IMG/VR virus record: IMGVR_UViG_3300042291_001013
Direction: 5' to 3' (one strand)
DNA length: 64,000 bases
Origin: a virus
Lineage: Duplodnaviria; Caudoviricetes
Part shown: piece by piece, positions 21,826 through 57,628 of the stretch
Layout: every line of letters starts with the position of its first letter
Position numbering within the stretch: position 1 is the first letter of the stretch
Notes under the pieces: model-generated
Told to the model about the DNA's origin: nothing
Databases searched by the model: none
Seen by the model: only the letters and a program-made list of their open reading frames with translations
Made by a program: the position numbers and the translations under genes

Positions 21826-24459
21826 TTAGCCCCGGCGAGCAAACTCTCTGCGGCGTTGTGCGCCAACTTGTGTCACGTGTTCAATCAGTCGATTGCGTAC
21901 AGCAAAAGCTGATTCAGTTACAGCACCGTACTTGACAAACGTTTGGTCAATAAACTGTTTGATCTTGGCAACGTCTTCTTTGGTTTCAACCATGTTGAGC
22001 ATTTCTGCTACGGGTTTCTTCAATGCATTAAACACACGACTCTCAGGCATGGCAGGAGCACCAATGCGTCTAATGTACTCATCCTTACTTAACTGTCCTG
22101 GTTGTGCGGCAGCTTTTACGCCAGCGCCACCACCTGCAGGTAGATTGAGGTTGTATTTGACACCAGGTGCCTTGGGCGCCGAAGGAGCCGCTGGTGCTGT
22201 GGGAGCCTTCATTCCTGGAATACCAGTCATGGGCTTGACACTCATAGTAGTCTTGCCATAGCCTGTGGGGCCACTTGCAAAACTAGCAGGCTTGGCTGGA
22301 GCAGGTGCCTTGGCATACTTTTCCATACCAGGCAAGTTCATTACGTTAGTAGCATTGAAACCAGGTTGTGCAGTTGTAGCAGTCTTGGCGGCTGTGGTAG
22401 ATGTAGTAGCGGCTGGTGCTGGTGCTGGTGCTGGTGTTGTGCCAGCTTGTGACTTGGCCTGCAACTCATCATAAGTCCAGGGTTTCTTGGTGGCTGGATT
22501 GGTACCATAGAACGGCATAGATTTTTGTGCGCCACCAGCAGTGGTTGCTTGTGGTTCAGCGGCTTGTGCCTTGGCTGGGTCAGCCTGCGGGGTATAAGGA
22601 ATACCCATCTTGCCATACACGCTGGTAACAACTTCTTGTGGTACGCCCTGTTTGGCCAACCAAGCAGCCAATTGATCTGAATCACTGGGCTTGCCAGCCT
22701 GGTGCCAGTTCATCTTGAGTTTTTCTTTTGTGACGTTGGTAGTAAACTGATGTCCAAAATTGCTCAGTGCACCGCCTACTTTTTTAACGCCTCGATCTAG
22801 TGCATTAAGACCACGACCAATTAGGCCAGGCTTTTTGTCTGGTTTCGTTGGAGCATCCATCATGTCTGGACGATAGTATTCTGGGCGTGTACTTCCAGGA
22901 ACACCCTTGAGTTCCATGATGGCTTTGCGATAACGGTCAACGTTCTCAAACACTGTGTATGTGCCAACCGTGGTTAAATTAAAACTAGTGCTCCGGCGAC
23001 CAACACTTTCGTTCAAGGCCCAACTCATCACAGTGCTCTTTTGATCAATCAGTTTGTCAGCTGGCAGCTTGAGCAACCGTACAGCAGGCAACCAACTTTC
23101 CTGTACTGGGTTTGAAAATTCTTGTGGGTTAAAATTCTTGATGTAGGCTTTGTCGCCTCTGATATAAGCAGTTACGTCTTGGCCAGCATAGTTTACTTGA
23201 ACTGCTTCGCTGCCAGGGCCAATTCTTGGCTGTATACCACCTTCAGGGAAAGCATAGGCCTGCACTTCTCTTCCGTCTGGAAGAGTCAATGTACCACTGG
23301 TGCCACCGTCAGGGAAAGACAATGAAGGTCCTGAGGGTGTTGTGGCACCAGCAAAATTGGCAGCATCTGGACTACCCAGTTGTTCTGGCCCTTGTGAAGC
23401 AGGAGCAACTCCTGGTGCGCTTGTATCTGTACCTTGCCACACACTTCCTGTGTTTGGTCCACTTGGTGGCAGTTGTAGTTCTGTGCCCACAGGCAATTTG
23501 GTCCAGTCGGTAATATCTGGATTCATTGCTTGAAGATCTTTAAACGGAACTCCTTGCGCTTGGGCAATAAATCCGCCTTGATCACCTTGCATCACAGTGT
23601 ATGTGCCACCACCCACAGGATCTGTAGCGGCAGCAAAGTTATCAGCAGGAACTGTTGGATCACCTGAGCCGCCAAATATTTTTCCTGCGGCCCAGGCTGT
23701 GGCTGCCGCTCCGCCAGCTTTGAGTGCAATGTCTGACAGTTTATCGCCTTTGATAGATGAATCTAAGCCGTATACCAGAGCTGCCACAGCAGGCAGTCCA
23801 GCACCACCTGTGGCTAAACCAGCAATACCAACCAAGGCCGCTTTGGCCAGGCCAGAGGTCTTGGGATACTGTTTGGCCAGCATGCGATACTTCTTGATGG
23901 CCTGCATCACTGCACCTTTTTGCCCGCCAGACAGTTTGGCCAGCGCATCAGTGGCTTGGTCATAGGCCGCGTCCAATGCGTCCACAGGCACTGAATTTTG
24001 TATTCCGGCCCACACGCCTTTAAGGGCATCAGCTACGCCGCCAGCAAAGTCCATGGTGGTATCTTTGCCACGACCCAGCATGGTACGATTGGCTCCGGTG
24101 CCTTTATCGGTCATGCCTGCTTCGGCATCAGCAAACACTTGTAAGATTTCTTTTTCGCTCATGCGGCGTTCAGCAATGTACTGACCCACACGCTTGAAGT
24201 TGCGATAAACAGGGTCTTCCATTAGACGAGCTTCGTTGAGCCGGCTTTCGCCTAGTCCTCTAGATCTCAAACTCTTTTCGTAGTAGGACTCTTCGTCGTT
24301 GGGCGGATCATAATCGTCGTCTTCAGGTGGATCCACATCGTCGTCTTCGGGGTCTTCAGCGTCACGATCGTTATAGTAATCTACATCGCTGTCATAGTTG
24401 CGAGGATCAATCTCGTTGAGTTTTTTCTTGTCGTCTTCAAATAGTTGGTCTAGTATCAT
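21826..24459 (-). CDS. Large LysM-containing protein with leader MILDQLFE, acidic and Ala/Pro-rich linkers
   Basis: LysM: YTVMQGD...IAQAQGVPFKDLQAMNPDI....LPVGTELQLP; start moved to 24459 (abuts stop of upstream gene). Confidence 0.75.
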   Translation of the reverse strand: MILDQLFEDDKKKLNEIDPRNYDSDVDYYNDRDAEDPEDDDVDPPEDDDYDPPNDEESYYEKSLRSRGLGESRLNEARLMEDPVYRNFKRVGQYIAERRMSEKEILQVFADAEAGMTDKGTGANRTMLGRGKDTTMDFAGGVADALKGVWAGIQNSVPVDALDAAYDQATDALAKLSGGQKGAVMQAIKKYRMLAKQYPKTSGLAKAALVGIAGLATGGAGLPAVAALVYGLDSSIKGDKLSDIALKAGGAAATAWAAGKIFGGSGDPTVPADNFAAATDPVGGGTYTVMQGDQGGFIAQAQGVPFKDLQAMNPDITDWTKLPVGTELQLPPSGPNTGSVWQGTDTSAPGVAPASQGPEQLGSPDAANFAGATTPSGPSLSFPDGGTSGTLTLPDGREVQAYAFPEGGIQPRIGPGSEAVQVNYAGQDVTAYIRGDKAYIKNFNPQEFSNPVQESWLPAVRLLKLPADKLIDQKSTVMSWALNESVGRRSTSFNLTTVGTYTVFENVDRYRKAIMELKGVPGSTRPEYYRPDMMDAPTKPDKKPGLIGRGLNALDRGVKKVGGALSNFGHQFTTNVTKEKLKMNWHQAGKPSDSDQLAAWLAKQGVPQEVVTSVYGKMGIPYTPQADPAKAQAAEPQATTAGGAQKSMPFYGTNPATKKPWTYDELQAKSQAGTTPAPAPAPAATTSTTAAKTATTAQPGFNATNVMNLPGMEKYAKAPAPAKPASFASGPTGYGKTTMSVKPMTGIPGMKAPTAPAAPSAPKAPGVKYNLNLPAGGGAGVKAAAQPGQLSKDEYIRRIGAPAMPESRVFNALKKPVAEMLNMVETKEDVAKIKQFIDQTFVKYGAVTESAFAVRNRLIEHVTQVGAQRRREFARRG

Positions 24460-24460
24460 A

Positions 24461-25225
24461 TCAACGTTCTTCCAGATAATCTTGATTGGCGTCCTGTTGC
24501 GCGGCCTCCCTGCGCTTTTGGAACAAACGCATGGCCATGTCTGCATGACCCAAGCGCGGGAAACGTGTAGCCAACTTGCGATCGCCACGACGTAGTTCAT
24601 ATCCTTGAGTGTCATCGCCCCAGCATTCTACGCTGGTGCCGTCAGTCATTTCATACACACGAGCAGGACTGCCGACGGCCTTGCTCAAAATTTCTACACC
24701 ACGATCAGTGTCAGTTAAGTTTTCGCCTACAGGTGCAGTGGGCTGACTCATGGCCTGTGCCACATGGTCTTCAATGCCGTGTGCAGTTTCTGTGTCTGCG
24801 GCATCCTCAGGACCAGAAACAGGTGCTACATCTGCGTCCCAGGTGGCAGCTTCTTCAGTCTGTGGATCATCGTCAATGTTGAGCTCAGCCTTGGCCTTGC
24901 GTATTAGACGCTGATCAATTTTGTTTTTCTTTTCCAGCGTTTCAAGATAGTCAGCAAAGCGACCCTTGACCTTGCTGATCATGTCTTCTTCAACTTCTTG
25001 CATGGCTTCGGCCAGAGCATTTTCGCCTACCATGTAGCCATCCATGGGATGAGCCTGATAGGGCTTTTTCTTTAGTGTGGGGCTGATGTCACGGGGCTTG
25101 AACAAGGCCGGCAACTGCGGCACACGTTCTTGCTGACCAGTCATGCTGCCGCGAGGGCTGACCGGTACAGTCCTGCCTTCAACCAGAGCCAGGCGCTCTA
25201 GTATGCTTCTAATGTCATTGCTCAT
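24461..25225 (-). CDS. Acidic modular hypothetical protein, candidate internal head protein
   Basis: MSNDIRSILE leader; segments ending VGE, TEE, VGE. Confidence 0.65.
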   Translation of the reverse strand: MSNDIRSILERLALVEGRTVPVSPRGSMTGQQERVPQLPALFKPRDISPTLKKKPYQAHPMDGYMVGENALAEAMQEVEEDMISKVKGRFADYLETLEKKNKIDQRLIRKAKAELNIDDDPQTEEAATWDADVAPVSGPEDAADTETAHGIEDHVAQAMSQPTAPVGENLTDTDRGVEILSKAVGSPARVYEMTDGTSVECWGDDTQGYELRRGDRKLATRFPRLGHADMAMRLFQKRREAAQQDANQDYLEER

Positions 25226-25665
25226 GCTCTATCTTCTTTCAAGAAACTTCTCAGCATCCAGCCGTGCTTTTGATGAGCATCAATGCGTTCTGCTATAAAA
25301 TTTACAATGCCTTGCTGATTCTCTTGTTCAGCGGTGGCAAATGTTTCGTTGAGTAGATCAAGCATTTGACCATTGTTGGCCAAGAGCTCTTCAATCATGA
25401 GTCGGGCACGTGGAATCTTTGTTTGCCCTTTGATAGTGGTGAGTTCACTAAAGCGTTCATAACTGCCGGGTGCATAGTCGCCCAGAGCACGAACGTATTC
25501 TGCTGTTCGGTCTATACTGTTGTTGTAGACTTCTTCGTACAAGTTACCAAAAAACTCATGCAACTGAGCAAAGTCAGGTCCTTCCACGTTCCAGTGAAAC
25601 TGCTGAGCCTTGAGACTGAAAGCATATTCAGTTGCTAGGAGAATTTTTAAACTGTCCGCGAGCAT
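25222..25665 (-). CDS. dps: Dps/ferritin-like DNA-protection protein
   Basis: HWNVEGPDFAQLHEFF..LYEE...IDR.AE; C-terminal H.KH.WML. Confidence 0.88.
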   Translation of the reverse strand: MLADSLKILLATEYAFSLKAQQFHWNVEGPDFAQLHEFFGNLYEEVYNNSIDRTAEYVRALGDYAPGSYERFSELTTIKGQTKIPRARLMIEELLANNGQMLDLLNETFATAEQENQQGIVNFIAERIDAHQKHGWMLRSFLKEDRA

Positions 25666-25837
25666 GTTTGTTCCTTTTGTATTCTTTTGGGGTGTTCGGT
25701 GTAGGATCAGAGCCCGTTACATATTTACCTGTCAACATTGATCCGCCATTTCTAGAAATGGCACCACCCAGGGGCATGGCCACTGTGGCTACCGAGCCAG
25801 ATGTGGTGGTTTCTAAAATGAATTCATTGGCTCTCAT
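25628..25837 (-). CDS. Small protein with capsid-targeting-like leader
   Basis: MRANEFILE-T. Confidence 0.6.
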   Translation of the reverse strand: MRANEFILETTTSGSVATVAMPLGGAISRNGGSMLTGKYVTGSDPTPNTPKEYKRNKHARGQFKNSPSN

Positions 25838-26135: not shown

Positions 26136-26141
26136 AAATGA

Positions 26142-26169: not shown

Positions 26170-26174
26170 TTGCT

Positions 26175-31188: not shown

Positions 31189-31413
31189 TCAGGCTATTTG
31201 TACCACGTTGGTAATTACTGAATTCTTTCCGTACTGCGCCATTAGTAATTGGCGGGCCATTGAGGGATTTTTGGCAAAAATGGCCACGTCCATTGAATTG
31301 GCGTAGAGTTCATTTTTGACCTTTACTCTGGCTTGATACACATGAAAGCCGGGCACTGCTGATTCTTGTAGGGCATACTGACTGCCCTGTTGACTGTTGG
31401 GATACTGTTTCAT
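31189..31413 (-). CDS. Hypothetical protein
   Basis: 74 aa, coupled to upstream gene. Confidence 0.6.
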   Translation of the reverse strand: MKQYPNSQQGSQYALQESAVPGFHVYQARVKVKNELYANSMDVAIFAKNPSMARQLLMAQYGKNSVITNVVQIA

Positions 31414-31841
31414 TAATCGGCCTTTTTGCCTTTGTCTTTTTCAGTAATGGGCCCACCAGTGACCCAGGCCTTGCATGACCTTGAGCCTGCACATTTGAAA
31501 TGCAAAAAATTGCAATAGCCAAGATCCGCCAAGTTGATACTGGCGTTGGCATCTACCCCCGACTCATCGCCCTGGATGCCATCAGCCATGCATTTTCGCA
31601 TGCTGTCACTAACATCAAACGCCGCACAGTTACCGCACTGCATGGTACGAGCAGTTGCCACACTGACCTTGAATATCTTTGCGCTCGTGCTCCAGTAGTC
31701 TTCAGCACGTTCAGGATTGGCAGGGCCGTAATGATATTCGTCAATGGCTTTTTGACGATTTTTTAGGTTGAGATCTATGTCATGCGTTGCTGTGGGGCAA
31801 CCATTGGAAATAGCTTCTAGTAGGTTTAGGTAGTTTCTCAT
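31413..31841 (-). CDS. Cys-rich protein with capsid-targeting-like leader
   Basis: MRNYLNLLE-A; CGNCAAF...C...GYC...FKC...SC..W. Confidence 0.7.
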   Translation of the reverse strand: MRNYLNLLEAISNGCPTATHDIDLNLKNRQKAIDEYHYGPANPERAEDYWSTSAKIFKVSVATARTMQCGNCAAFDVSDSMRKCMADGIQGDESGVDANASINLADLGYCNFLHFKCAGSRSCKAWVTGGPITEKDKGKKAD

Positions 31842-33167
31842 TTAGTGGAACATCAAGTAACTGTCAATCACGTCTAGTCGATTGGCCGCACGATCGCCTG
31901 CACCGGGCTGTACAATAACGTTCCATTTAGGCTTGGGGCCTTCAGGAGTGGCCAGCATTTGATCGTATGTGATAATGGTGTCCCTGGGCACTTGATACTG
32001 TTGTGCCAGTCGATCTTTAAATGTGTCCAGAGCTTCGGGTGACGCAAACTGTGTGCGACCCTTGGCGTCTTTGATTAGACTGTTGCCCTTACGTGCAATT
32101 AAATCAAAGAACATGTTCTTGGGCACTGTGACGCCTTGCTTGACTGTGTTGCCTGCTTGACGATGCAACTCAACCTTTTTGACTTCGCGGCTCTTGCTAC
32201 CGGAACTGAAGTTGATTATAAAGTTAGGCGGATGCGAGCCTGTGGCCACATCGCCCATTTTGGTATAAGCATAGAATTTAACGTCAGGATTGGCCTTGGC
32301 CACATCATATGCTAGGTCAAGGTATTCTTTACTAAAGAAGTCTCCTGCATCGTGCCAGCGCACCACAAGCTGAATACCAGCTTTATCTGTTTTGTTTTTG
32401 AGTGCTGTGATTTCTTTGTTTACAGCGGCCATGTAGCCTTCAGGCTCATTTACCAGGAAGTTCAAGGCCTGTGCCGCGCTCATGCTAGACGCCGGGAACA
32501 TTACATAACCGCCTTTACGTGCATAGCAGAACAACTGACATTCGCCTGCGCCCGGGCAGGTCTTTATTTCCACAAAGTCACCCGACTCTTCATCTACTAC
32601 AATACCACTCAGTGCAGGCAGTGTTAGATCATAAATGATTTCACCTTCGGTCTTGCTCTTTTCCATTTTGGCATTGGTGCCTAGAATAGCTCGAGGACGT
32701 GTGGTGATTTGCTTGGCTAGATCATCTAGATCCCACTCAGTGCCGCCATCGTCCTTGGTAATGGCTTTAATGTTTGAGCCGTGTATAATGGGTGCAAACT
32801 TGTCACGCTTGGTCTTGGTGCCTGTTTTGATACGGTCAGCATAGCCTTGCAATTCATCTCGACTCAGTGTTTGTTGTGGTGCATTGAGCTTGATAGCTTC
32901 CGCCACACCTTGCTCGTTTTTAACTACAAAACTTGTGTGCTGAAGACCAGTAAGGGGGTCCGTGTATGTGCGCTTGAACACCTTACCGCCATGCTCACGT
33001 GCATGAGCAAATGCTTCAGACTTGCTGTCAAACCTGTTTGAGGGAGGCTTAATCATGGGAGACGCTTGTTCATCTACTCCGCTTTGATCTACTGTGACAA
33101 CAGTAACAGGGAATCCTCCCAGGGTGCGCGGAGCTTCAGCTTGCTCCACAATGGTTTGTAACTTCAT
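31842..33167 (-). CDS. Modular protein: leader + small module + Gp88-like (radical-SAM-like) domain
   Basis: MKLQTIVE leader; SGVDE and EQGVAE junctions; CPGAGECQLFCYA, RWHDAGDF, FYAYTK. Confidence 0.7.
   Translation of the reverse strand: MKLQTIVEQAEAPRTLGGFPVTVVTVDQSGVDEQASPMIKPPSNRFDSKSEAFAHAREHGGKVFKRTYTDPLTGLQHTSFVVKNEQGVAEAIKLNAPQQTLSRDELQGYADRIKTGTKTKRDKFAPIIHGSNIKAITKDDGGTEWDLDDLAKQITTRPRAILGTNAKMEKSKTEGEIIYDLTLPALSGIVVDEESGDFVEIKTCPGAGECQLFCYARKGGYVMFPASSMSAAQALNFLVNEPEGYMAAVNKEITALKNKTDKAGIQLVVRWHDAGDFFSKEYLDLAYDVAKANPDVKFYAYTKMGDVATGSHPPNFIINFSSGSKSREVKKVELHRQAGNTVKQGVTVPKNMFFDLIARKGNSLIKDAKGRTQFASPEALDTFKDRLAQQYQVPRDTIITYDQMLATPEGPKPKWNVIVQPGAGDRAANRLDVIDSYLMFH
32897..32914 (-). 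repeat. 18-bp dispersed repeat encoding the QGVAE linker (copy 1)
   Basis: Plus-strand cttccgccacaccttgct identical at 57427-57444; 14-bp core also at 57594-57607. Confidence 0.85.
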
Positions 33168-35815
33168 TTTGCTTCTCCAAATATAGGCCCACGCACAAAT
33201 TGGCCCAGTTGATTTAATATACCATTACGCAGGTTTTCAATCATTTCATCTGTGATATCTCTACGGCGTGTTTGCGCAATAAAGATATGCATTTCAATGG
33301 CGTCATCGCCTTCTTTTTCCAGTATAGCATGGCAACGATGACGTCCGTCATGTCCTTTTACTCGGGCTTCTAGACTAAAGTCACCCTGCTCCCAGGATTC
33401 GGGTACAGACACATTCAAAAATGGTGCGCCAATGCCGCGCTCATTGAGTTCGCCTTTGCAAAACGCAATTGCCTTGCGCTCTTCAGGATCATGTGGGTCC
33501 ATGGGCAGGGCCAGCTTTAGAAACATCGACGGGCGCATTTGTACCTGTAGGCCAAAGTAATCAACGTCAGCATTGTAGGGCACAGCACCCACACCTGAAG
33601 AGTTGTTGATACGTACTTCGTCTAGGCTTTCATTTTTTCTTTTGGCTCGGGCACGACCTGATTTCATGTTGGCCAACCAGTGTGCCAGTTGTCCTTTGCG
33701 CCCGCCTGATTTGGCAGTTTTGCGTAAGCTACTTACACTTGCTTTGGTATTGATACCGTGTCGCTTGGCATCGCCCTTGTCTTGTGGATTACGCCCGTCG
33801 GCAAAGTTTTCTGATACACCTTGCTTGTCAGCCCAGAGCAAGCGTCCTTCTTCTTGCGCTATACGATGTATGTTGGTTCCCAATTTGGTGGGCTGTATGT
33901 CATAGTTGTCGAACTGTGCTGAAAGTTTTTGAAGTATTCTTACAGCACCAAGATATTGATCGCCCACAAGATCATCAGGCACAACTACCAGGATATCAGT
34001 GTCGCTGTTTCTACGATGTTTTCCTGTAGCGCGACTACCATGGAACCATATTTCTTGTGCCACAGGCATGACTTTTTGTATGGCATCAACCACTTCTGGC
34101 CGTACAGAACCTGGTCGAGCTTCGTCTACGTTGTATGTGGGATCAGTCTTTTGACGCGGCATGTCTGGGGGCTGATTGGGATCAACAGGGTCAATGTCTG
34201 TTGTAGTAAGCCCAGTGCGTTTCAGCGCCTGTATGTACTGATGTTCAAGATCTTCGTCACCAAAGCTCAGTATGGCGCTGGGAGGTCCGGCACCAAAGTC
34301 ATGCTTGCCTAGGCCTTTCATGTTGGAAATATGTTGTCCCAGCTTGTACCAGTCGTAGACATCGCTTACATCTACCTTGACAGTGCCTGCAGGCATAGTG
34401 GGCGGAGTTTCTGGGCCCAAGGGTGCATTTAAATCCCTATTGTTGTTGGGACCTTTACTGGGCTGGGGCAAGCGGTATTCTACCATGTCAACTCGGCCGT
34501 CAGCACGTAGCATTTGTGGGCGACCTTGTGCATCAGTTTTTAGACTCATGCGGTTGGCATTTAATCCTGTGGCGCCGGGACGTACATCCTGTGTTAGAGC
34601 CATTTCAAATCTGGGATCATTCTTTTCGGCTTCAGTGGGAATATAACCTGAGCTTTCAAACATAGCAGGGTTGCGATCAGCCCAGTCACGCATGATCACA
34701 CCGGCCACAGCATGTGCTTGGTTTTCCCAGTCACTGCCGGTGTCGCCTGCTTCGTCAGGCAACTCACTATCTTGATTTTGTCTACAATGTGCCAGCTCGT
34801 GTGCAGTGGTGCGCAAGATATCCATGACATGGCGGTTAACCAGGCTCACTTCTAGTGTGTGCGTTTCAGGCGTGTAGCGTCCAAAGCTGTGGCTTTGGGA
34901 ACTCCACTCAGGGTCAGTGTGCAGTTCAATCTGTGGTATTTGTGTTATGCCCAAGCGATCTGCCGCATAGTCAATAAAGTCACGCACCACAGCTTCAGTG
35001 TCCCGGGGCTCGTCTTCTAGGAACATCTTGGTTGAAGGATCCACACCGTCTGGACTTTCTGACATGAAGCCGTAGATTACCGGCGCCATTGGGGTGTTCT
35101 TTTCTGCTAGGCTAAGTTCCTTGGCATGTGCGGCATTGCGAGCGTCAATTAACTGTTTGATAGCACCATGTGCTCGCAACATCTTGAACACCAAGTTGTC
35201 GCAGCCAAATTCGCCCTGCTGTTCCAGGCCAGTTTGGCGCATGGTTTTGATTTTTTGTTGTAGACTACGCATACGATCACTATCGTCACTGGCCACAGCA
35301 GATTCTATACGTGCTTTTAGATCTTGATACTTGGCTTGTACACAGCTATCGTCAATGGTGACTTGTCTGCGTCGAGGAACCTGTATCCAGGCATTGCGCA
35401 ACAAACTGTAAATGCCTTGACTGTGATGTTCTTGATCAGAAGGCTGTGCATACAGTTCTACATCAGCGCCGCCAATGCGTATGTTGTGTTGTTCGTTGTA
35501 CTGATATTTTTTAGCATTAAACAGCTCACGATACACTTCGTCATGAACAACATTGGGTATTTCCACCACAATGTGCAGATCAATGTCAGATCCGTCAGTG
35601 TAGTTGTAGGCCGCGTTAGATCCGCTTACCGTGATGTCTTTGACATCAAGATCGGGTACGCCCAAGAATTCTTGAAAGTCTCGGGCCACCTGTAACAGGC
35701 GTTCTTTTACCTGGGGATGCAGATGTTCTGCACTGTCCCATAACCGAGGGTTGAGTCGGTCATGGAATTTTACAGCATCTGCCAGGTTGAATGATTCCAG
35801 TTCAAATATGTTCAT
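33164..35815 (-). CDS. Multidomain polyprotein-like protein: Pol-beta NTase + HExxH zincin + minimal NTase + ParB-like domain
   Basis: GSNAAYNY...SDIDLHIV; TAHELAH; FHGSRA...SDTDILVV; GHDGRHR; junctions end in FLE, FES, NVDE, QGVSE, SLDE. Confidence 0.75.
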   Translation of the reverse strand: MNIFELESFNLADAVKFHDRLNPRLWDSAEHLHPQVKERLLQVARDFQEFLGVPDLDVKDITVSGSNAAYNYTDGSDIDLHIVVEIPNVVHDEVYRELFNAKKYQYNEQHNIRIGGADVELYAQPSDQEHHSQGIYSLLRNAWIQVPRRRQVTIDDSCVQAKYQDLKARIESAVASDDSDRMRSLQQKIKTMRQTGLEQQGEFGCDNLVFKMLRAHGAIKQLIDARNAAHAKELSLAEKNTPMAPVIYGFMSESPDGVDPSTKMFLEDEPRDTEAVVRDFIDYAADRLGITQIPQIELHTDPEWSSQSHSFGRYTPETHTLEVSLVNRHVMDILRTTAHELAHCRQNQDSELPDEAGDTGSDWENQAHAVAGVIMRDWADRNPAMFESSGYIPTEAEKNDPRFEMALTQDVRPGATGLNANRMSLKTDAQGRPQMLRADGRVDMVEYRLPQPSKGPNNNRDLNAPLGPETPPTMPAGTVKVDVSDVYDWYKLGQHISNMKGLGKHDFGAGPPSAILSFGDEDLEHQYIQALKRTGLTTTDIDPVDPNQPPDMPRQKTDPTYNVDEARPGSVRPEVVDAIQKVMPVAQEIWFHGSRATGKHRRNSDTDILVVVPDDLVGDQYLGAVRILQKLSAQFDNYDIQPTKLGTNIHRIAQEEGRLLWADKQGVSENFADGRNPQDKGDAKRHGINTKASVSSLRKTAKSGGRKGQLAHWLANMKSGRARAKRKNESLDEVRINNSSGVGAVPYNADVDYFGLQVQMRPSMFLKLALPMDPHDPEERKAIAFCKGELNERGIGAPFLNVSVPESWEQGDFSLEARVKGHDGRHRCHAILEKEGDDAIEMHIFIAQTRRRDITDEMIENLRNGILNQLGQFVRGPIFGEAK

Positions 35816-39227: not shown

Positions 39228-39237
39228 AGTGTATTAT

Positions 39238-45364: not shown

Positions 45365-46246
45365 TTAGCAGTTCCACTTTCTTAGTGCTAGAGCTTTGCG
45401 TGTGGGCTTACCATTGGGCTTTTTCATTGGGCCTTTAACTCCGCCCATTCTTGCACAGAAACTCTTGCGGCGCTTGGCTGCTTTTGATCCTGGCTTGAGC
45501 TTGCTGGGCTTTGTGGTCACTGCCATTTGCAATTTACTACCAGGATTCTCTCTGCGATAGCTGGCAACACCTTTGGCGTTGAGTCCGCCTTTTTTGCTCT
45601 TGCCTGCACTGCGTCTCCAGGCGGCTGTTTCGTATAACACGTTGTCTGGCATGGCTTCAAACTGTTCCCACACTAGGTCTTTACTCACGCGATTTTTAAT
45701 AGACATTTCTTCAGCCAACTCGTCCATGGCTTCAAACATGGCGTCTATCTCGGGATCCACTTCGTCTGAGGCTTCTTCTGAATACATGTAATCCCATACC
45801 GCAACCAACATTGATTTGGCCACAGCAATTTTTTCTTGGCACCATTCAGGCAAGTTGTCACCTGATTGAATCAAGTCATCAATGCCTTCAACAGCACGTT
45901 GCAATGTTTCCAAGTTGTTGTCAGCCATGCCTGCTTCGTCATCGTATTCAGGGTTGTAGTTTTCGTCCACGCCTGCTTCTTTCTTTTTAGCAATAGCAAT
46001 TGCGGCTTGCTGTGCAGGATTGGCAGCTTCTTCAACACCTTCTGATTTGTTGCCATAACTGCCAGCGCCTTTTTTGCGACACTGAACCAAGCGTCCAGAT
46101 GCATACGCACTTGGCCATACCTTGGCACTTGCTTTGACCTTGTAGTAACAAGCGTCTTTCTTTTCTGTCATCATCATTTCACTAAACATGGGCCCGCCGC
46201 AATGCGGACATTTGTGTGATGACTCTGTTATGTCTTTGAATTTCAT
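45365..46246 (-). CDS. Modular basic/acidic protein, candidate internal head polyprotein
   Basis: MKFKDITE leader; modules bounded by MTE, EGVEE, AGVDE, LYE. Confidence 0.7.
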   Translation of the reverse strand: MKFKDITESSHKCPHCGGPMFSEMMMTEKKDACYYKVKASAKVWPSAYASGRLVQCRKKGAGSYGNKSEGVEEAANPAQQAAIAIAKKKEAGVDENYNPEYDDEAGMADNNLETLQRAVEGIDDLIQSGDNLPEWCQEKIAVAKSMLVAVWDYMYSEEASDEVDPEIDAMFEAMDELAEEMSIKNRVSKDLVWEQFEAMPDNVLYETAAWRRSAGKSKKGGLNAKGVASYRRENPGSKLQMAVTTKPSKLKPGSKAAKRRKSFCARMGGVKGPMKKPNGKPTRKALALRKWNC

Positions 46247-46818
46247 TTGCGTTTTCCTTTGGTACTTACATTTATGGCGGCACCCGAACGGTTGGGATTG
46301 GGATCTTCTCGGCGTTTGCGGGCTGCCGCACTGGCACGACCTTTTTTGCCCAGGGCATGTGCTTTGGCTTGAGGCAAACACTTGGGCTTGCCTTCTTTAC
46401 TACTGCCTCTGGCACAGTCCCCACGTATCTTGCCGTCGGGTCCAAATCGAACCCACTTTTGTTTAAACCAGTCTCGAAGATTTTCTTCAAGCTCTTGAGT
46501 TGACATTTTCTTTTCATACCCTTGCACAGCAGTGTTTCTAGCAGGGTTGGGTGCATCTTTAAATTTGGATGCTGGCAAAAACTTGTCAATACTTTTCAAT
46601 GTTAGTGGACCCATTATGCCATCTATGTCCAAGTTGGCATTGTGTTCTTGATTTAGCATTTGCTGTATTCTGCGTACCGAGTCAGAATCTTTATTTTCTT
46701 CTTCAAGTTCTGTTTCACTCACAGGCACACAATTGGGAACCATTCTAGAGCCTTTTTTCTTCATGCCAGCTTGACGGTATCCGTCCCAGCAGGCTTCTAG
46801 TATTTCTCTGTATCTCAT
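46243..46818 (-). CDS. Modular protein with peptidoglycan-binding-like module, candidate internal head polyprotein
   Basis: MRYREILE leader; CWDGY...VPNCVP; VRRIQQML...DIDGIMGPLT; LEE junctions. Confidence 0.7.
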   Translation of the reverse strand: MRYREILEACWDGYRQAGMKKKGSRMVPNCVPVSETELEEENKDSDSVRRIQQMLNQEHNANLDIDGIMGPLTLKSIDKFLPASKFKDAPNPARNTAVQGYEKKMSTQELEENLRDWFKQKWVRFGPDGKIRGDCARGSSKEGKPKCLPQAKAHALGKKGRASAAARKRREDPNPNRSGAAINVSTKGKRK

Positions 46819-51039: not shown

Positions 51040-51810
51040 TTAATATCCTGCTTTTGCTATTTCAGCACCGCGGTTAAAACTGTCACTCCATGATGCTGTG
51101 CTGACACCGCCGCGAGCCTTTGACCATTGGTAACCGGCTCTGTGTCCTGAACAGTCTTTTGTACAAGGACTCATGCCCATGAACGTTAATTCTCGCAACT
51201 GTTCTTGCCCTTTGATGCCAATTACCATGCTTCGTATATAGTCAGTCTCGGGGTCTTCAAGTTTGATTTTGTCTTTGAAAAGAACCTTTTCCAGGGGAAA
51301 TAGTTCCAGCAATTGATCAGGCGAACCAAAATTGTGTTCACTGCTGGCCTGTACATTGTCTCGGCCCTGCAGGACCACAAGAGTTCCTGAAGGTATGTTA
51401 TCAAACCAGCCATGGTCAGGAATGTCTGTGGTGCTGGTGTTTATTACCAGGCCAGGATCTTGTAACTGACGATAGTCAATTTGATTGGCATCAGCTCGCA
51501 TGTGGTCTACACCATCAATGTTCATGCTCTGTTGCATTTGTTTTCCCTGACGCAACCATTTGGCGTTCTTTTCCACGTCAATGATGCGTTCAATAGGAGT
51601 GTTGGCTTTGCGCAAGATAGTACTCAAGTTACTGTACCATGAGCCCAGTACATAAGCAACTGGCACAGAGTCAATACCCTGTTTGCGCATGACTTGTTGT
51701 AGTTCACGAGCCAACCATATCTTGCTCAAGATCAAGTCTGTGGTATAACTGCCGGCCAAGCTGTAGCCAGAACTTTCTTCAAGTGGTGCATACAGCTCGT
51801 TTAGAATCAT
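51040..51810 (-). CDS. Methyltransferase-like protein with capsid-targeting-like leader and C-terminal Cys/His micro-module
   Basis: MILNELYAPLEE; VLGSWY, IIDVE, LVINTS, VVLQG; after LRE: CTKDCSGH.AGY.W. Confidence 0.6.
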   Translation of the reverse strand: MILNELYAPLEESSGYSLAGSYTTDLILSKIWLARELQQVMRKQGIDSVPVAYVLGSWYSNLSTILRKANTPIERIIDVEKNAKWLRQGKQMQQSMNIDGVDHMRADANQIDYRQLQDPGLVINTSTTDIPDHGWFDNIPSGTLVVLQGRDNVQASSEHNFGSPDQLLELFPLEKVLFKDKIKLEDPETDYIRSMVIGIKGQEQLRELTFMGMSPCTKDCSGHRAGYQWSKARGGVSTASWSDSFNRGAEIAKAGY

Positions 51811-53520: not shown

Positions 53521-53522
53521 TG

Positions 53523-56500
53523 TTAGATAATATTGGCCCAGGCACCATTCTCGTAACCCTGGAACTTGTTGACAGATGAATTGTAAATCATGTCACCATT
53601 TGCCGCAATAGTGTTGGCAATTTGTGCTGTGGTTAAACTAGGCAATCGGAATGTGCCGCCACCAATCACACGCACCGCAGACACCGCTGATAAGTCCAAG
53701 TTTGTGGTACTGCTTATTGTGGGAGTACCTGCGCCGCCACCAACAACATTACCAATAAAGTTACCAGCAGTAACGTTGCCAGTAGTTGATATAGGGTTAG
53801 AACCAAATGCAGCCAGATTTGCCGCTACATTGGCGTTGCCATAAGAACTAACACCGTTGGCAATACCAGTCAATAAACTGCCATTACCAATAAAATAGTT
53901 GCTAGAGATATTGCCTGTGGTACTGATTGTGTTACTGCCATACCCAGCTAGCAAGGTAACCACGTTTGAGTTACCATAACCACTTGCGGCAATACCAGTC
54001 AACAGCGATCCATTACCAATAAAGAAATTGCCAGCAATGTTGCCTGTAGCACTAACAATACCGCCAGTGCTGACGTTGGCCGCAACCATGTTGCCTGTGG
54101 CTGATATCACGCCAGGGCTAGTTATGTTGCCACCACTCACGTTACCTGTAGCTGACACCAGGCCTGACACATACGCACCAGTGTTGGCCACTACCATGAC
54201 GTTTGATGTACCGCCAATGGTTACAGTAGCGTTGCCGTTTATCAGTGGCATTGAAATAACACTGGTTCCGTTAATTACACCAGGGTGATTGTGACTTTGT
54301 TCAGCACCAACAGCGTTGGCCACGTTGCCCAGGAAGTAAGCACCTGTGACATTGCCAGTACTACTGATCACACCACCTGTGATAATGTTGCCGCCTGTGA
54401 CGTTGCCGGCAAATGTTGGTGCAGTTTCAATCCCAACTGTGGCAGTTTTACTAGTGGCATTGCCCACAATTGTGACATTGGTACCTGGAGTCAGTGTAAC
54501 TGTGTCATTGGGGCTGGAAGCCACCAAACTGGTACCGTTGGCACTGACTGTGTTGAAAATGTTTGCGGCTGCCGCAGTAATGCCTGTCAGCTGTGAGCCA
54601 TTGCCCACAAAGAACCCAGCTGCCTCAACGTTGCCCACAGCACTGATTGTGCCCAGAGATTCAATATTGTTTTCAACATTCAAGCCATCAACCACTGTGA
54701 CAAATGCACTGTTGTCAGATGTAATGGTGTTGGTAACCAGTATTGGTGTTTCAACACCGCCCTCGGCCCTGATCCCATCTTCTATAGTGACAAAACTGCT
54801 GTCGCCTGATGTGATGCGGCTGGCTGTAATAACACCTGAAACTGTCAAATTGCTCAGTGCGCCCACACTAGTAAGACTACTGTTTACAACATTGGAAGCC
54901 AGTGTATTGCCCACCAAGAGCTGTGCATTGGCATTGGTGGCCACAATGCCAGTCAGCTGTGATCCATTGCCAACGTAGTAACTTGCAAATATATTGCCTG
55001 TGGCACTAATGTTGCTAGCGGCACTCATGCCAGCAGTGGCTTTGACAAATACGCCCTGAATGTTGGCAGTTGTTGTAACGTTGCCAGCCAAAAGTGATAA
55101 GTTACCGGTGTATGTGGGCAAATACGTTGCAACGTTGGCATTGCCATACGATGCCGCAATGCCTGTGAGCAAGGCTCCGTTGCCTAGTACATAGCCGCCT
55201 GTGGAGATATTACCAGTGGCAGTGACAGCACCAGTTATGGTTGTATTGCCACCTGATACAGCGCCCGAGACCGCCAGCGAAGTCAGTGTGCCCACTGACG
55301 TAATTGCTGACTGTGCAGGATTGGTCACTGTGTTGGCAGTTGCGGCGCTGGTGGCAAAACTAGAATTCTGTGCAGTCAGCGCATTGCCAGAGTTGGCCGC
55401 ATAGCCTGCATTGGCCACTGTGCCCGAAACATTGGCACCAGTTATTGAGCTCAGTGCCGAACCATTGCCGCTGATGTTACCACTACTAATGTTACCAGTA
55501 ACTGCCAGCGTTGACAGCGTGCCTACTGAAGTGATATTGGGCTGTGCGGCTGTGGTCACTGTGCCTGCTGTGATGGCCACTGTGGCCAAGGTGGCTGAAT
55601 TTGCAGAGCCAGCAGTGTTGGCAAAATATGCATTGTTTACAATGCCCAACACGTTGGCGCCAGTGATATTGCTGAGTTGTGCGGCGCCACCAATGAAGTT
55701 GGCCCCAGTCACATTGCCAGCTGTACCTAAATTGCCTACGTTAGCATTACCAGTTAATGATATGGCCTCGCCAGTGATATTGCCAGTGTATGTGGGTAAG
55801 AACATGGCTACGTTTGAGTTGCCGTATCCAGACTGAACTCCAGTTAAGAAAGCACCATTGCCAACAAAGTACCCAGTGGTGGTTCTGATATTTCCCACAG
55901 CAAGTACACCATTTAGGGCATTTAAGTTATTGCCAGCCAGGATGTTTCCAACGGTGCTGATAAATCCGCCAACGTTGGCATTGCCTGTAGTGGAAATATT
56001 GTTGGGAGTCAAGTTGCCGGTGTATGTGGGCAAGTACGCCTGCACATTGGCATTGCTGTAAGTGGCTGGCAATCCAGTCAGCTGTGATCCGTTACCAAAC
56101 AGATACCCAGTTGTGGTGATATTGCCAGTTGACACCAAGGATGTTAGAGTGCCCACACTAGTGATATTGGGCTGTGCGGCAGTGGTCACTGTTTGAGCTC
56201 GCACTGCTGTTGTGGCTGTGGCTGCCAGGGTTGCCACAGCAGCCTGCTCAGCATTGGTTGCGTAACTGGCATTGGCCACTGCACCTGACACATTGGCGCC
56301 AGCCACACTGTAGGCCACGTAGGCTATGTTAGCAATTGCGGCTTGATTTACTATACCTGACACATTGGCGCCGGCCACAGCACCTGCTGAGTTGGCATAG
56401 TTTGCTATGCTGGCTGCTCCTGCTGATGTGGCATATGTGGCGTTGGCCACGGTGCCCGAAACGTTGGCACCAGTCACGCTGTAGGCCACGTTGGCTGTGG

Positions 56501-57086
56501 TAGCTGAAGTTGCTGTGCCTGAAAGATTTGAATACTGTGCGTTGGCCACAAGACCAACCACATTACTACCTGTGATACCGGAAAGTCTTGAGCCTGATCC
56601 AACAAAATAAGCCGCATCCACATTGCCTGTGGTGGCCAAGATATTGGTATTGGCATTGTAAGTTAGATTACCACTAGCACCAAATGTGCCATTTTGATTG
56701 AACTGGATCTGGGTGTTTCCACCTGCGGCAATACCAGCACCGTTGCCACCGGCAACTTGAATTAGAATATTGCCATTGCCCAGATTGTTTAAGTAAACAC
56801 CCGGGCCGGTAAAGTTCAGTGTGTTGGCTGATGTTGTAAGAGTATTGCTGTCATACTGTATGGTCACTGTGCGTGGCAGCGCGGCTACCACTACGTTTTG
56901 TGTAGGCAAAGGAGCAAACAAGTTGCCCAGGCCAGTACTTTGAGCTGGTGGACGTGAAAGTCCAGTTTGTGCAGGAACCGGAATTGGCACACCTGAACCA
57001 GGACCTGGCGGTACTGGATCGGGCGCTGTATCAAGCGGTCCAATTACGCCGTCTGCTATGGTAGGGGTGATATTCGCGGTTGGCAT
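53523..57086 (-). CDS. Long Gly/Asn/Thr-rich repetitive tail-fibre-like protein
   Basis: Many (F/Y)xGNG(S/A)xLTGI, AQPNITSVGTL and YGNANV...LPTYTGN repeats; C-terminal GDMIYN...FQGY..GAW. Confidence 0.75.
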   Translation of the reverse strand: MPTANITPTIADGVIGPLDTAPDPVPPGPGSGVPIPVPAQTGLSRPPAQSTGLGNLFAPLPTQNVVVAALPRTVTIQYDSNTLTTSANTLNFTGPGVYLNNLGNGNILIQVAGGNGAGIAAGGNTQIQFNQNGTFGASGNLTYNANTNILATTGNVDAAYFVGSGSRLSGITGSNVVGLVANAQYSNLSGTATSATTANVAYSVTGANVSGTVANATYATSAGAASIANYANSAGAVAGANVSGIVNQAAIANIAYVAYSVAGANVSGAVANASYATNAEQAAVATLAATATTAVRAQTVTTAAQPNITSVGTLTSLVSTGNITTTGYLFGNGSQLTGLPATYSNANVQAYLPTYTGNLTPNNISTTGNANVGGFISTVGNILAGNNLNALNGVLAVGNIRTTTGYFVGNGAFLTGVQSGYGNSNVAMFLPTYTGNITGEAISLTGNANVGNLGTAGNVTGANFIGGAAQLSNITGANVLGIVNNAYFANTAGSANSATLATVAITAGTVTTAAQPNITSVGTLSTLAVTGNISSGNISGNGSALSSITGANVSGTVANAGYAANSGNALTAQNSSFATSAATANTVTNPAQSAITSVGTLTSLAVSGAVSGGNTTITGAVTATGNISTGGYVLGNGALLTGIAASYGNANVATYLPTYTGNLSLLAGNVTTTANIQGVFVKATAGMSAASNISATGNIFASYYVGNGSQLTGIVATNANAQLLVGNTLASNVVNSSLTSVGALSNLTVSGVITASRITSGDSSFVTIEDGIRAEGGVETPILVTNTITSDNSAFVTVVDGLNVENNIESLGTISAVGNVEAAGFFVGNGSQLTGITAAAANIFNTVSANGTSLVASSPNDTVTLTPGTNVTIVGNATSKTATVGIETAPTFAGNVTGGNIITGGVISSTGNVTGAYFLGNVANAVGAEQSHNHPGVINGTSVISMPLINGNATVTIGGTSNVMVVANTGAYVSGLVSATGNVSGGNITSPGVISATGNMVAANVSTGGIVSATGNIAGNFFIGNGSLLTGIAASGYGNSNVVTLLAGYGSNTISTTGNISSNYFIGNGSLLTGIANGVSSYGNANVAANLAAFGSNPISTTGNVTAGNFIGNVVGGGAGTPTISSTTNLDLSAVSAVRVIGGGTFRLPSLTTAQIANTIAANGDMIYNSSVNKFQGYENGAWANII

Positions 57087-57088
57087 TG

Positions 57089-57628
57089 TTATCGTTCTTT
57101 CTTAGGCTGCTGTGCAGGTTGTACCGCTGTGGGTACGTTTTTATAAACACGTTTTTCAGGATCGTAAACTGTTTTTAGTGGGCCCATGCCTGCTAGCTGT
57201 TTAACTCGGGCAACCATGGCTTGATAGTCATCGCCATAGTCTGCTTCTTTTTCTTTGTTTTCTGCTACACCTTGCTTTTTAGCTTGTTGAATCTTTGCTT
57301 GTATTAATTTTAACTGTTTGCTCAATGGGTCGTCTAGACCAACACGACCGCCGTCTTTTACAATAGCATCGATCTTGTCGCTGATTTCGCTTGCTTTAGC
57401 TTTTAATGATGTTAAATCATCAGCGCCTTCCGCCACACCTTGCTTTCTATTATCCAATTTGGTAAACGCTTTAACAAAATTAGGACCACTTTTCATGCTT
57501 TTTGAGTCACTGCGTTTTGTAGGATCCATTTTGTGTTTAAGGTTATCTTTATCTAATTTTGTTAGATAACTGGTTAGCGTAGCATCACTAACCTCCGCCA
57601 CACCTTGAGTAAATTCATTCAGTCTCAT
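57089..57628 (-). CDS. Modular protein of three segments separated by QGVAE, candidate internal head polyprotein
   Basis: MRLNEFTQGVAE...RKQGVAE...KKQGVAE; start moved to 57628. Confidence 0.75.
   Translation of the reverse strand: MRLNEFTQGVAEVSDATLTSYLTKLDKDNLKHKMDPTKRSDSKSMKSGPNFVKAFTKLDNRKQGVAEGADDLTSLKAKASEISDKIDAIVKDGGRVGLDDPLSKQLKLIQAKIQQAKKQGVAENKEKEADYGDDYQAMVARVKQLAGMGPLKTVYDPEKRVYKNVPTAVQPAQQPKKER
57427..57444 (-). repeat. 18-bp dispersed repeat encoding the QGVAE linker (copy 2)
   Basis: Identical to 32897-32914. Confidence 0.85.

What the first reader, a model, noticed from the sequence alone, without database searches (positions are those of the whole stretch)
24459..57628. 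Ten dispersed genes share a T4 capsid-targeting-sequence-like leader
N-termini: MILDQLFE (24459), MSNDIRSILE (25225), MRANEFILE (25837), MRNYLNLLE (31841), MKLQTIVE (33167), MNIFELE (35815), MKFKDITE (46246), MRYREILE (46818), MILNELYAPLEE (51810), MRLNEFTQGVAE (57628). All are short leaders ending hydrophobic-X-E. Known: T4 internal proteins use a leader such as MKTYQEFIAE for head packaging, and gp21 protease cuts after (I/L)-X-E. Inference: this phage packages and injects a large and diverse protein cargo, including enzymes (MTase, NTases, Gp88-like, LysM).
Basis: partly seen in the sequence, partly recalled or inferred. Interest (0 to 1): 0.8.

Follow-up and report, generated by a model that had tools for sequence, protein, structure and literature searches.

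The report
Capsid-loading tags on giant-phage proteins
Several otherwise unrelated proteins of an uncultured freshwater T4-like giant phage begin with a short tag very like the one phage T4 uses to load proteins into its head and then cuts off, so the phage probably packs enzymes with its DNA, although no experiment shows this yet.

Summary
All ten N-termini are in the sequence as stated, on the minus strand. It fits 29 of 167 N-termini of the 128-kb record against 16-20 expected, including ClpP, a ClpB-like ATPase and a radical SAM enzyme.

Relatives reveal a much sharper leader, M-[RK]-[AIL]-x-E-[FIL]-[ILV]-x-E, close to T4's MKTYQEFIAE. It heads 12% of proteins in 80 related loci, against 0.3% of internal Met windows, and sits on at least 24 unrelated protein groups.
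- Five of the ten (starts 25837, 46818, 57628, 46246, 33167) carry this leader.
- The gene at 51810 is the best case. In 70 of 70 distinct homolog N-termini a Glu directly precedes the conserved mature start, with L/I/V/F three residues before it.
- Starts 24459, 25225 and 31841 have family-specific variants.
- The leader at 35815 is doubtful.

Four near-complete or complete relatives (342-355 kb) encode a T4 gp21-type prohead protease; in the one examined it lies in a T4-ordered head module.

Packaging, cleavage and injection remain inferred. The window's own protease gene could not be reached. This scan has noted similar tags on other DNA. Verdict: a new member of the known T4 capsid-targeting system, with enzyme cargo.

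The parts
25628..25837 (-). p3, 69 aa. Canonical 9-residue leader MRANEFILE, predicted cut E9|T.
   Evidence: Best profile score of 195 N-termini (21.5). 15 of 15 distinct homolog N-termini are canonical.
46243..46818 (-). p8, 191 aa. Leader MRYREILE, predicted cut E8|A, directly followed by a Cys-Trp module (ACWDGY...VPNCV).
   Evidence: Profile score 14.6. The module lies internally in other PHROG families and 9 residues behind the leader in L036.
57089..57628 (-). p10, 179 aa. Leader MRLNEFTQGVAE, predicted cut E12|V. Two further QGVAE sites end at residues 67 and 123.
   Evidence: Profile score 10.8. Three QGVAE sites are encoded by nearly the same 15 nt. The C-terminal module 127-171 recurs at the end of other leader proteins.
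45365..46246 (-). p7, 293 aa. Leader MKFKDITE, predicted cut E8|S, then a zinc-ribbon module, GVEE73 and GVDE95 linkers, and a C-terminal DUF6321 domain.
   Evidence: Profile score 9.5. Pfam DUF6321. The zinc-ribbon module always lies 4-5 residues behind a hydrophobic-x-E, whether N-terminal or internal.
31842..33167 (-). p5, 441 aa, GP88-domain protein. Leader MKLQTIVE, predicted cut E8|Q. Further sites are GVDE33 and QGVAE90, just before the conserved domain.
   Evidence: Pfam GP88 1e-32. 39 of 54 distinct N-termini of homologs, chosen by their mature domain, are canonical. Homology in relatives starts at residues 83-94.
51040..51810 (-). p9, 256 aa, class I SAM methyltransferase fold. 12-residue leader MILNELYAPLEE, predicted cut E12|S.
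   Evidence: In 70 of 70 distinct homolog N-termini, Glu precedes the conserved start [ST]SG and P3 is L/I/V/F. Canonical and LFE-type leaders interchange. In the AlphaFold model, residues 11-14 have pLDDT below 50. Methyltransferase fold.
21826..24459 (-). p1, 877 aa, with a LysM domain at residues 287-331. Leader MILDQLFE of the M-x-L-x-x-L-F-E type, like T4 Alt MELITELFDE.
   Evidence: LysM. This leader type occurs on 16 of 1942 N-termini against 1 of 9354 internal windows. In the relatives checked it sits on the large protein that follows the p2-family gene.
24461..25225 (-). p2, 254 aa. N-terminus MSNDIRSILERLALVE.
   Evidence: In 20 homologs position 10 is E/D/S/A/K/N/Q, whereas a hydrophobic-x-E-G at about residues 15-17 is kept in most.
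31413..31841 (-). p4, 142 aa, Cys-rich. N-terminus MRNYLNLLE, possible cut E9|A.
   Evidence: Glu 9 and a hydrophobic P3 are kept in about 47 distinct homolog N-termini, but the whole protein is at least 77% identical in them, so this does not separate a leader from a structural helix.
33164..35815 (-). p6, 883 aa, two nucleotidyltransferase regions. N-terminus MNIFELE. Doubtful as a cleaved leader; it may be targeted without being cut.
   Evidence: Among 24 distinct homolog N-termini, position 7 is mainly E or D, with K, S and others. The N-terminus runs straight into the conserved domain. The G002 ortholog starts MRLNEFE.

Best explanation
The canonical leaders are capsid-targeting propeptides of the T4 type. 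This covers starts 25837, 46818, 57628, 46246 and 33167, the equivalent leader at 51810, and probably the variants at 24459, 25225 and 31841.

Proposed mechanism, with the status of each step:
1. During head assembly the 8-16 N-terminal residues bind the scaffolding core of the prohead. This is inferred by analogy with T4.
2. The gp21-type prohead protease then cuts after the Glu of hydrophobic-x-Glu. The motif and the protease gene in relatives are shown; the cleavage itself is inferred.
3. The protease also cuts at internal G-V-x-E linkers that separate exchangeable modules (inferred).
4. The mature proteins stay in the DNA-filled head and enter the host with the DNA (inferred). They include a GP88-domain protein, a methyltransferase-fold protein, a LysM protein, zinc-ribbon/DUF6321 proteins and small basic proteins.
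For: 1. Leader similarity. The lineage consensus M-[RK]-[AIL]-x-E-[FIL]-[ILV]-x-E matches T4 IPII/IPIII MKTYQEFIAE one residue shorter. Other T4 gp21 substrates start the same way: Alt MELITELFDE, gp24 MAKINELLRE, gp22 MLKEQLIAE, gp21 MNEPQLLIE. In T4, residues 4 and 7 of the CTS serve targeting and residues 8 and 10 serve processing (PMC9026906). These map onto the hydrophobic position 3 and the conserved positions 6, 7 and 9 here.

2. Enrichment. The tight leader heads 239 of 1942 distinct proteins against 29 of 9450 internal Met windows. In G001 it is 12 of 432 against 8 of 1984. In complete G002 it is 14 of 424 against 3 of 1895, with eight consecutive leader genes.

3. Portability. 200 distinct leader proteins fall into 24 unrelated groups by their mature parts, and synonymous codons vary.

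4. Glu specificity. Position 9 is E 108 times and D once. In the p9 family P1 is E in 70 of 70, and P3 is L 34, I 29, V 4, F 3, while the rest of the leader changes type and length.

5. Same junction inside and at the start. The zinc-ribbon module always lies 4-5 residues behind hydrophobic-x-E. The AANPAQQAAIAIAKKK module follows GVEE in p7 and follows the leader's LFE in L011. GV.E is 15-fold enriched inside leader proteins of the record, and GV.D is not.

6. Protease. Peptidase_S77 scores above the curated cut-off in four relatives that are 95-100% complete. In G001 the head module keeps the T4 order: gp20, a small protein, a protein starting MSKFEQLIE, gp21, a scaffold-like protein, then gp23 with a predicted L-K-E42|N cut before the Pfam Gp23 core.

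7. Structure. In the AlphaFold model of p9 the leader is a low-confidence helix, and the predicted cut site is disordered.
Against: - There is no direct evidence of packaging, cleavage or ejection.
- The 128-kb record holding the window has no Peptidase_S77 match. It is about 34% complete and lacks the head module. The 361-kb contig that carries an identical p9 could not be searched.
- The loose motif also sits on ClpP, a ClpB-like ATPase and a radical SAM enzyme.
- A late-promoter-like ATAAATA box is not clearly linked to leader genes (0.60 against 0.38 of genes, n = 10).
- The counts pool related sequences, so the p-values overstate independence.
- The profile used to rank the window's genes includes N-termini of their own homologs.
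Confidence: 0.62

Rival explanations
1. Chance or ordinary first helices. The ten N-termini are simply amphipathic starts of unrelated proteins that happen to contain hydrophobic-x-Glu. They carry no shared function.
For: The loose motif fits 29 of 167 N-termini against 16-20 expected, including housekeeping genes. The N-terminus of p6 runs straight into its conserved domain and its P1 residue varies. The N-termini of p4 and p2 are fixed parts of their families.
Against: The tight leader is about 40-fold enriched at N-termini and sits on 24 unrelated groups. In the p9 family the junction Glu is invariant in 70 of 70 while the leader type swaps. E outnumbers D 108 to 1.
Confidence: 0.08
2. The leaders do load the proteins into the prohead, but these proteins are assembly or core components like T4 gp22, gp67 and gp68. 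They are degraded or retained, and are not cargo delivered into the host.
For: Head-core proteins of relative G001 start with similar peptides (MILNEVYQ, MSKFEQLIE). p10 is a small basic protein cut into roughly 55-residue pieces by three QGVAE sites, as expected of a core protein.
Against: Several leader proteins have enzyme or binding domains with no obvious scaffold role: nucleotidyltransferase, GP88, LysM and a methyltransferase fold. They lie outside the head module. T4 Alt and the IPs are a precedent for ejected CTS proteins (PMC5694885, PMC3012670).
Confidence: 0.17
3. The leader is an address for a different machine, not the capsid. Candidates are a recognition tag for the phage's own Clp system (ClpP plus a ClpB-like ATPase) or for a modifying enzyme such as one of the many radical SAM proteins.
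For: The phage encodes ClpP, a ClpB-like ATPase and a DnaJ-like protein. ClpP lies next to the leader arrays in G001 and G002. A radical SAM gene lies just downstream of p1.
Against: No radical SAM signature (C-x3-C-x2-C in the first 120 residues) lies within or beside the leader arrays of G001 and G002. In the window's record ClpP is far from the leader genes. The leader matches the T4 CTS and the gp21 cut motif residue for residue, which this reading does not explain.
Confidence: 0.08

Closest known systems
Phage T4 capsid targeting sequence (CTS) on internal proteins IPI, IPII and IPIII, removed by the gp21 prohead protease (Mullaney and Black 1996, as reviewed in PMC9026906 and PMC3012670)
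   Same: A short N-terminal propeptide: Met, a basic residue, then a hydrophobic/acidic pattern ...E-F-I-x-E ending in (L/I)-x-Glu. It sits on otherwise unrelated proteins, in a phage lineage with a gp21-type protease and T4-type head genes.
   Different: - The leader here is one residue shorter.
- It comes in at least two interchangeable types.
- It sits on large multi-module proteins (up to 877 aa here, 782 aa in G002) and on enzymes, not only on small basic proteins.
- Internal G-V-x-E linkers separate exchangeable modules.
- No experimental evidence exists for this lineage.
T4 Alt (ADP-ribosyltransferase packaged in the head; processed at ITE-6 and LTE-619; PMC5694885)
   Same: A large enzyme carried in the head with a short N-terminal propeptide. 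Alt's MELITELFDE resembles the M-x-L-x-x-L-F-E leaders of p1 and of many p9 homologs.
   Different: No sequence similarity in the mature parts. C-terminal processing was not examined here.
Processed head and inner-body proteins of phiKZ-like giant phages (201phi2-1, phiKZ, SPN3US), cut by the gp175/gp245 protease at S/A/G-x-E (PMC5694885, PMC9026906)
   Same: Many head proteins with propeptides that hold several cut sites ending in Glu, in phages with very large genomes and a distant gp21 relative.
   Different: A different P3 preference (small residues against L/I/V/F here), a different protease family (S80 against S77), no shared short N-terminal tag, and no T4-type head module.

Membership tests
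T4-type CTS propeptide proteins (gp21 substrates) | N-terminal propeptide of about 6-19 residues ending in (L/I)-x-Glu | tested here: met
   All ten have hydrophobic-x-E ending at residue 7-12. For p2 the conserved site is at residue 16. T4 comparators were read from NC_000866.
T4-type CTS propeptide proteins (gp21 substrates) | Sequence likeness to the T4 CTS at its functional positions: basic residue 2, hydrophobic targeting residues, I/L at P3, Glu at P1 | tested here: met
   Met for five of the ten plus the p9 family. Not met in canonical form by p1, p2, p4 and p6, which have variant N-termini.
T4-type CTS propeptide proteins (gp21 substrates) | A gp21-type (Peptidase_S77) prohead protease in the same genome | tested here: inconclusive
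   There is no match in the 128-kb record holding the window, which is about 34% complete. The 361-kb contig with an identical p9 is not held. The gene is present, above the curated cut-off, in four relatives that are 95-100% complete; in G001 it lies in a T4-ordered head module.
T4-type CTS propeptide proteins (gp21 substrates) | The tag is portable: the same leader on unrelated mature proteins | tested here: met
   200 distinct leader proteins fall into 24 unrelated groups. Leader types swap within the p9 family. The same modules follow either a leader or an internal linker.
T4-type CTS propeptide proteins (gp21 substrates) | Strict Glu at P1 (in T4, Asp blocks processing) | tested here: met
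   E to D is 108 to 1 at position 9. E in 70 of 70 in the p9 family. Not met in the p6 family, where P1 is mainly E or D, with K, S and others.
T4-type CTS propeptide proteins (gp21 substrates) | The protein is present in the prohead or virion, and the propeptide is removed | not testable with these tools
   No cultured relative was found in the phage collection. No proteome data were available.
T4-type CTS propeptide proteins (gp21 substrates) | Delivery into the host cell with the DNA | not testable with these tools
   Needs infection experiments.

The most novel reading that the evidence does not exclude
This widespread freshwater giant-phage lineage has turned the T4 capsid-targeting tag into a general building kit. 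Any module can be loaded if it is placed behind an interchangeable leader or an internal G-V-x-E linker. Examples are enzymes such as a methyltransferase-fold protein, nucleotidyltransferases and a superoxide dismutase, plus zinc ribbons and small basic peptides. The prohead protease would then release the modules as separate proteins inside the head. Recombination at the leader and linker codons would shuffle the injected enzyme set between phages.
Probability: 0.4. Interest if true: 0.7.

Novelty: new member of a known kind. Interest (0 to 1): 0.55.

Why it matters
If the tags work as in T4, sequence alone predicts which proteins this abundant lake phage lineage carries into the cell ahead of any gene expression. 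That gives a direct list of candidate first-strike effectors: a methyltransferase-fold protein, nucleotidyltransferases, a LysM protein and perhaps a superoxide dismutase. It also gives the exact mature N-termini to look for in lake viral metaproteomes.

It would also show that the T4 packaging tag has kept almost the same sequence across very distant T4-like phages. That matters for using such tags to load foreign proteins into phage heads.

The concept itself is established for T4, and this scan has noted similar tags in other uncultured T4-like phages, so the surprise is moderate.

Tried and rejected
- Exact T4 late promoter. TATAAATA is not enriched in the 128-kb record: 3 and 1 occurrences on the two strands against about 4.3 expected per strand.
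- Shorter late box. ATAAATA is the most enriched upstream 7-mer in G001 (25 against 1.7). Leader genes are not clearly more often downstream of such a box (0.60 against 0.38, n = 10), so I do not use it as support.
- Protease in the window's own genome. There is no match in the fragment. The 361-kb contig with an identical p9 is not held for whole-record search. The single metagenome scan with a relative's gp21 returned 80 other contigs.
- Cultured relatives with virion proteomes. Megablast found none, and tblastn gave only distant partial hits: cyanophages, Maribacter phages and Streptomyces phages.
- The 768-aa protein at G000 27994-30300. It matches a 'major head protein' PHROG only over about 90 residues and has one partial tblastn hit, so I did not treat it as the capsid protein.
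- Sequence searches of p1 and p9 against solved structures found nothing.
- Radical SAM neighbour as the leader's partner. It is not conserved next to the arrays in G001 and G002.
- Likeness of the p3 segment behind the leader to the N-terminal arm of mature gp23. It is not significant for the window's p3 (153 of 500 shuffles reach the score). It is significant only for the G001 pair, in a low-complexity stretch.
- Generic [ILV]-x-E depletion inside the mature parts is seen in two sequence sets and absent in two, so it is not used.
Full report
**What is in the window.** The window is the reverse strand of positions 41755-105754 of a 128,034-bp IMG/VR virus record. CheckV rates that record about 34% complete. 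Nearly all genes run on the window's minus strand.

Reading each stated coordinate as the first base of a minus-strand ATG gives exactly the ten quoted peptides:
- MILDQLFE, 877 aa
- MSNDIRSILE, 254 aa
- MRANEFILE, 69 aa
- MRNYLNLLE, 142 aa
- MKLQTIVE, 441 aa
- MNIFELE, 883 aa
- MKFKDITE, 293 aa
- MRYREILE, 191 aa
- MILNELYAPLEE, 256 aa
- MRLNEFTQGVAE, 179 aa

A simple gene caller based on coding potential and RBS chose 24459 and 57628 independently, although longer frames exist. Start 46246 overlaps the upstream stop, and homologs begin at the same place.

The rule ^M.{3,8}[ILVFM].E fits 29 of 167 well-supported N-termini of the record. Internal windows predict 16.3 (p 0.0017) and internal Met windows predict 20.5 (p 0.034). 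The hits include ClpP (MSNLVPIVIE), a ClpB-like ATPase, a radical SAM enzyme and a conserved protein next to the DNA polymerase gene.

**Relatives reveal a sharper leader.** A scan of IMG/VR with the GP88-domain protein found 521 related loci, of which 80 were kept. Homologs were chosen by their mature domain. Even so, nearly all begin M-[KR]-x-x-E-[FIL]-x-x-E: MRFHEFIAE, MKAHEFIFE, MRAKEFTLE, MRFNELQE and so on. This holds for 39 of 54 distinct N-termini in that family and 15 of 15 in the p3 family.

Across all proteins called in these loci plus two genomes:
- 239 of 1942 distinct proteins (12.3%) start M[KR]..[ED][FILVM], against 29 of 9450 internal Met windows (0.3%).
- Positions the search pattern left free are also conserved: A/I/L at position 3, I/L/V at position 7, and E at position 9 in about half.
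- In the 342-kb relative G001 the count is 12 of 432 against 8 of 1984.
- In the complete 355-kb relative G002, 14 of 424 N-termini score 3 or more against 3 of 1895 internal windows. Eight consecutive genes at 27.3-41.3 kb all carry the leader.

These sequences are related to each other, so the p-values overstate independence. The direction is nevertheless unambiguous.

**Which of the ten carry it?** A profile built only from relatives ranks p3 (25837), p8 (46818), p10 (57628), p7 (46246) and p5 (33167) as the five best of 195 N-termini in the record. Each has p <= 0.001 against internal Met windows. The profile does include N-termini of these genes' own homologs, so the ranking is not fully independent.

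p9 (51810) has a different-looking leader but gives the clearest test. Among 120 of its 505 database homologs, 70 distinct N-termini can be anchored on the conserved mature start [ST]SG:
- The residue just before the mature start is Glu in 70 of 70.
- The residue two further back is L (34), I (29), V (4) or F (3).
- The rest of the leader switches between the canonical type (30, for example MRAQELTE) and an M-x-L-x-x-[LI]-F-E type (38, for example MILGDIFE).
- Leader length ranges from 8 to 13 residues.

This is the (L/I)-x-Glu specificity known for T4 gp21. It also shows that the two leader types are interchangeable.

The remaining four are weaker:
- p1 (24459) has the second leader type. That type is rare elsewhere: 16 of 1942 N-termini against 1 of 9354 internal windows. 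In the relatives checked it marks the large protein that follows the p2-family gene.
A hydrophobic-x-E-G at residues 15-17 is kept in most, so L-V-E16|G is the likelier site.
- p4 keeps L-L-E9|A in every homolog. Those homologs are at least 77% identical overall, so this says little.
- In the p6 family, position 7 is mainly E or D, with K, S and others, and the N-terminus runs straight into the conserved nucleotidyltransferase domain. Its G002 ortholog does start MRLNEFE. I rate p6 doubtful as a cleaved leader.

**Evidence that the Glu marks a processing site.**
- Among 200 distinct leader proteins, position 9 is E 108 times and D once. Position 5 tolerates D.
- Codons for the conserved residues vary (AGA/CGA/CGC, GCA/GCT/GCC, GAA/GAG, ATT/ATA/ATC). 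Selection therefore acts on the peptide, not on a DNA box.
- The mature parts fall into 24 unrelated groups.
- Leader junctions equal internal junctions. The zinc-ribbon module of p7 lies 4-5 residues behind hydrophobic-x-E whether that Glu ends an N-terminal leader (MKFKDITE|SSHK-C, MIISELFE|TPQQ-C) or an internal P-V-A-E.
- The AANPAQQAAIAIAKKK module follows GVEE inside p7 and follows the leader's LFE in L011.
- p10 has QGVAE three times. p5 has GVDE33 and QGVAE90, the latter just before its conserved domain, which is where homology with most relatives begins.
- GV.E is enriched inside leader proteins: 6 in 1189 residues against 12 in 35,589 in the record (p 1.5e-5). The enrichment is 4- to 5-fold in G001 and G002. 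GV.D is not enriched.
- In an AlphaFold model of p9 (mean pLDDT 84.8), the leader is a low-confidence helix and residues 11-14, which span the predicted cut, fall below pLDDT 50.

**The protease and the T4 comparison.** The 128-kb record has no Peptidase_S77 match, but it lacks any head module. Four relatives of 342-355 kb, 95-100% complete, each have one match above Pfam's cut-off.

In G001 the neighbourhood keeps the T4 gene order:
- gp20 portal (PF07230, 1.6e-102)
- a 72-aa protein starting MILNEVYQ
- an acidic 271-aa protein starting MSKFEQLIE
- gp21
- a 362-aa scaffold-like protein
- gp23 (PF07068, 1.8e-99), whose Pfam core starts at residue 54, behind a predicted L-K-E42|N site

I read the T4 N-termini from NC_000866 rather than from memory:
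- IPII and IPIII: MKTYQEFIAE
- IPI: MKTFKEFTSTTTPVSTITE
- Alt: MELITELFDE
- gp24: MAKINELLRE
- gp22: MLKEQLIAE
- gp21: MNEPQLLIE

The literature states the following for T4:
- The first ten IPIII residues suffice for packaging. Residues 4 and 7 serve targeting and residues 8 and 10 serve processing. Asp at position 10 blocks cleavage but not targeting (PMC9026906).
- Alt is cut at ITE-6 and LTE-619 (PMC5694885).
- The T-even internal proteins share only the CTS (PMC3012670).

Shifted by one residue, the lineage consensus conserves the equivalent positions.

**Cargo.**
- Pfam supports LysM in p1, the GP88 domain in p5, Pol-beta-type nucleotidyltransferase in p6 and DUF6321 in p7.
- p9 has a class I SAM methyltransferase fold: Foldseek E about 4e-8 to many methyltransferases, with TM-scores of 0.5-0.64 normalised to the matched structures.
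- p2, p3, p4, p8 and p10 have no assignable function.
- The genes are dispersed in this window. In G001 their counterparts form one 11-kb same-strand block in the order nucleotidyltransferase, two leader proteins, p4, p5, small proteins, p3, a ferritin-like protein, p2, then a large LFE-type protein.

**What remains open.** Packaging, cleavage and ejection are all inferred. I could not show a gp21 gene in the window's own genome. Earlier notes of this scan mention capsid genes on the same genome, but I did not verify them. A link to late transcription is not established.

Three alternatives stand:
- Ordinary first helices, which is credible for p4 and p6.
- Core proteins rather than delivered cargo.
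- A tag for another machine, such as the phage's Clp system.

The last is not excluded, but it does not explain the residue-for-residue match to the T4 tag and cut motif.

**Novelty.** The principle is established for T4. Reviews already suggest that T4-like phages use the CTS to load varied proteins (PMC9026906). Three full-text searches found no description of such tags in uncultured or giant T4-like phages. This scan has noted comparable leaders on other DNA. I file it as a new member of a known kind. The notable extras are large enzyme cargo, two interchangeable leader types and G-V-x-E module linkers.

Noticed in passing
G000:C1:26732-27274 (about 14.5 kb beyond the window's end; L002:6732-7274): An Fe/Mn superoxide dismutase carries a roughly 15-residue N-terminal extension, MREQIDLIEANTRPAK, ahead of the canonical domain start (Pfam Sod_Fe_N position 5 aligns at residue 20). 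An exact TATAAATA lies 5 nt upstream. This looks like a known enzyme family given a leader.
   Followed up: partly
window 25222-25665 (-): A ferritin/Dps-like protein (Pfam Ferritin, 6.7e-23) without a leader lies between p3 and p2. The same placement is kept in relative G001 (86452-86892).
   Followed up: no
window 39848-42112 (-), 42182-42979 (-); G000:C1:1863-2450: The phage encodes its own proteostasis set: a ClpB-like ATPase (phrog_4871, 1e-236), a DnaJ-like protein and a cellular-type ClpP. In G001 and G002, ClpP lies next to the leader-gene arrays.
   Followed up: partly
window 57593-57628, 57428-57442, 57260-57274, 32898-32912 (-): The four QGVAE sites are encoded by nearly the same 15 nt (CAAGGTGT[GA]GC[GA]GA[AG]). 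These could serve as recombination points for module exchange.
   Followed up: partly
window 25628-25837 (-); G001 86285-86452 and 227445-228662: In the p3 family, the segment behind the leader (SGxIATV-rich) resembles the N-terminal arm of mature gp23. This is significant for the G001 pair (0 of 500 shuffles reach the score) but not for the window's p3 (153 of 500).
   Followed up: partly
G001 whole genome; window 39228-39240: ATAAATA is the most enriched 7-mer upstream of genes in G001 (25 against 1.7 expected) and sits before head, tail and fibre genes. One such box lies 7 nt before the 54-aa gene at window 39227, which heads the same-strand run leading to p6, p5 and p4; the box is kept in G001. 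The k-mers GTTGACC and TGCTATAAT mark a second, sigma-70-like promoter class.
   Followed up: partly
window 51973-53520 (-), 53523-57086 (-): A 515-aa subtilase (Pfam Peptidase_S8, 1.4e-32) follows a 1187-aa protein that has no family match. Both lie between p10 and p9.
   Followed up: no
window 20875-21717 (-): A radical SAM enzyme (phrog_1802) lies directly downstream of p1. No such neighbour lies beside the leader arrays of G001 or G002.
   Followed up: partly
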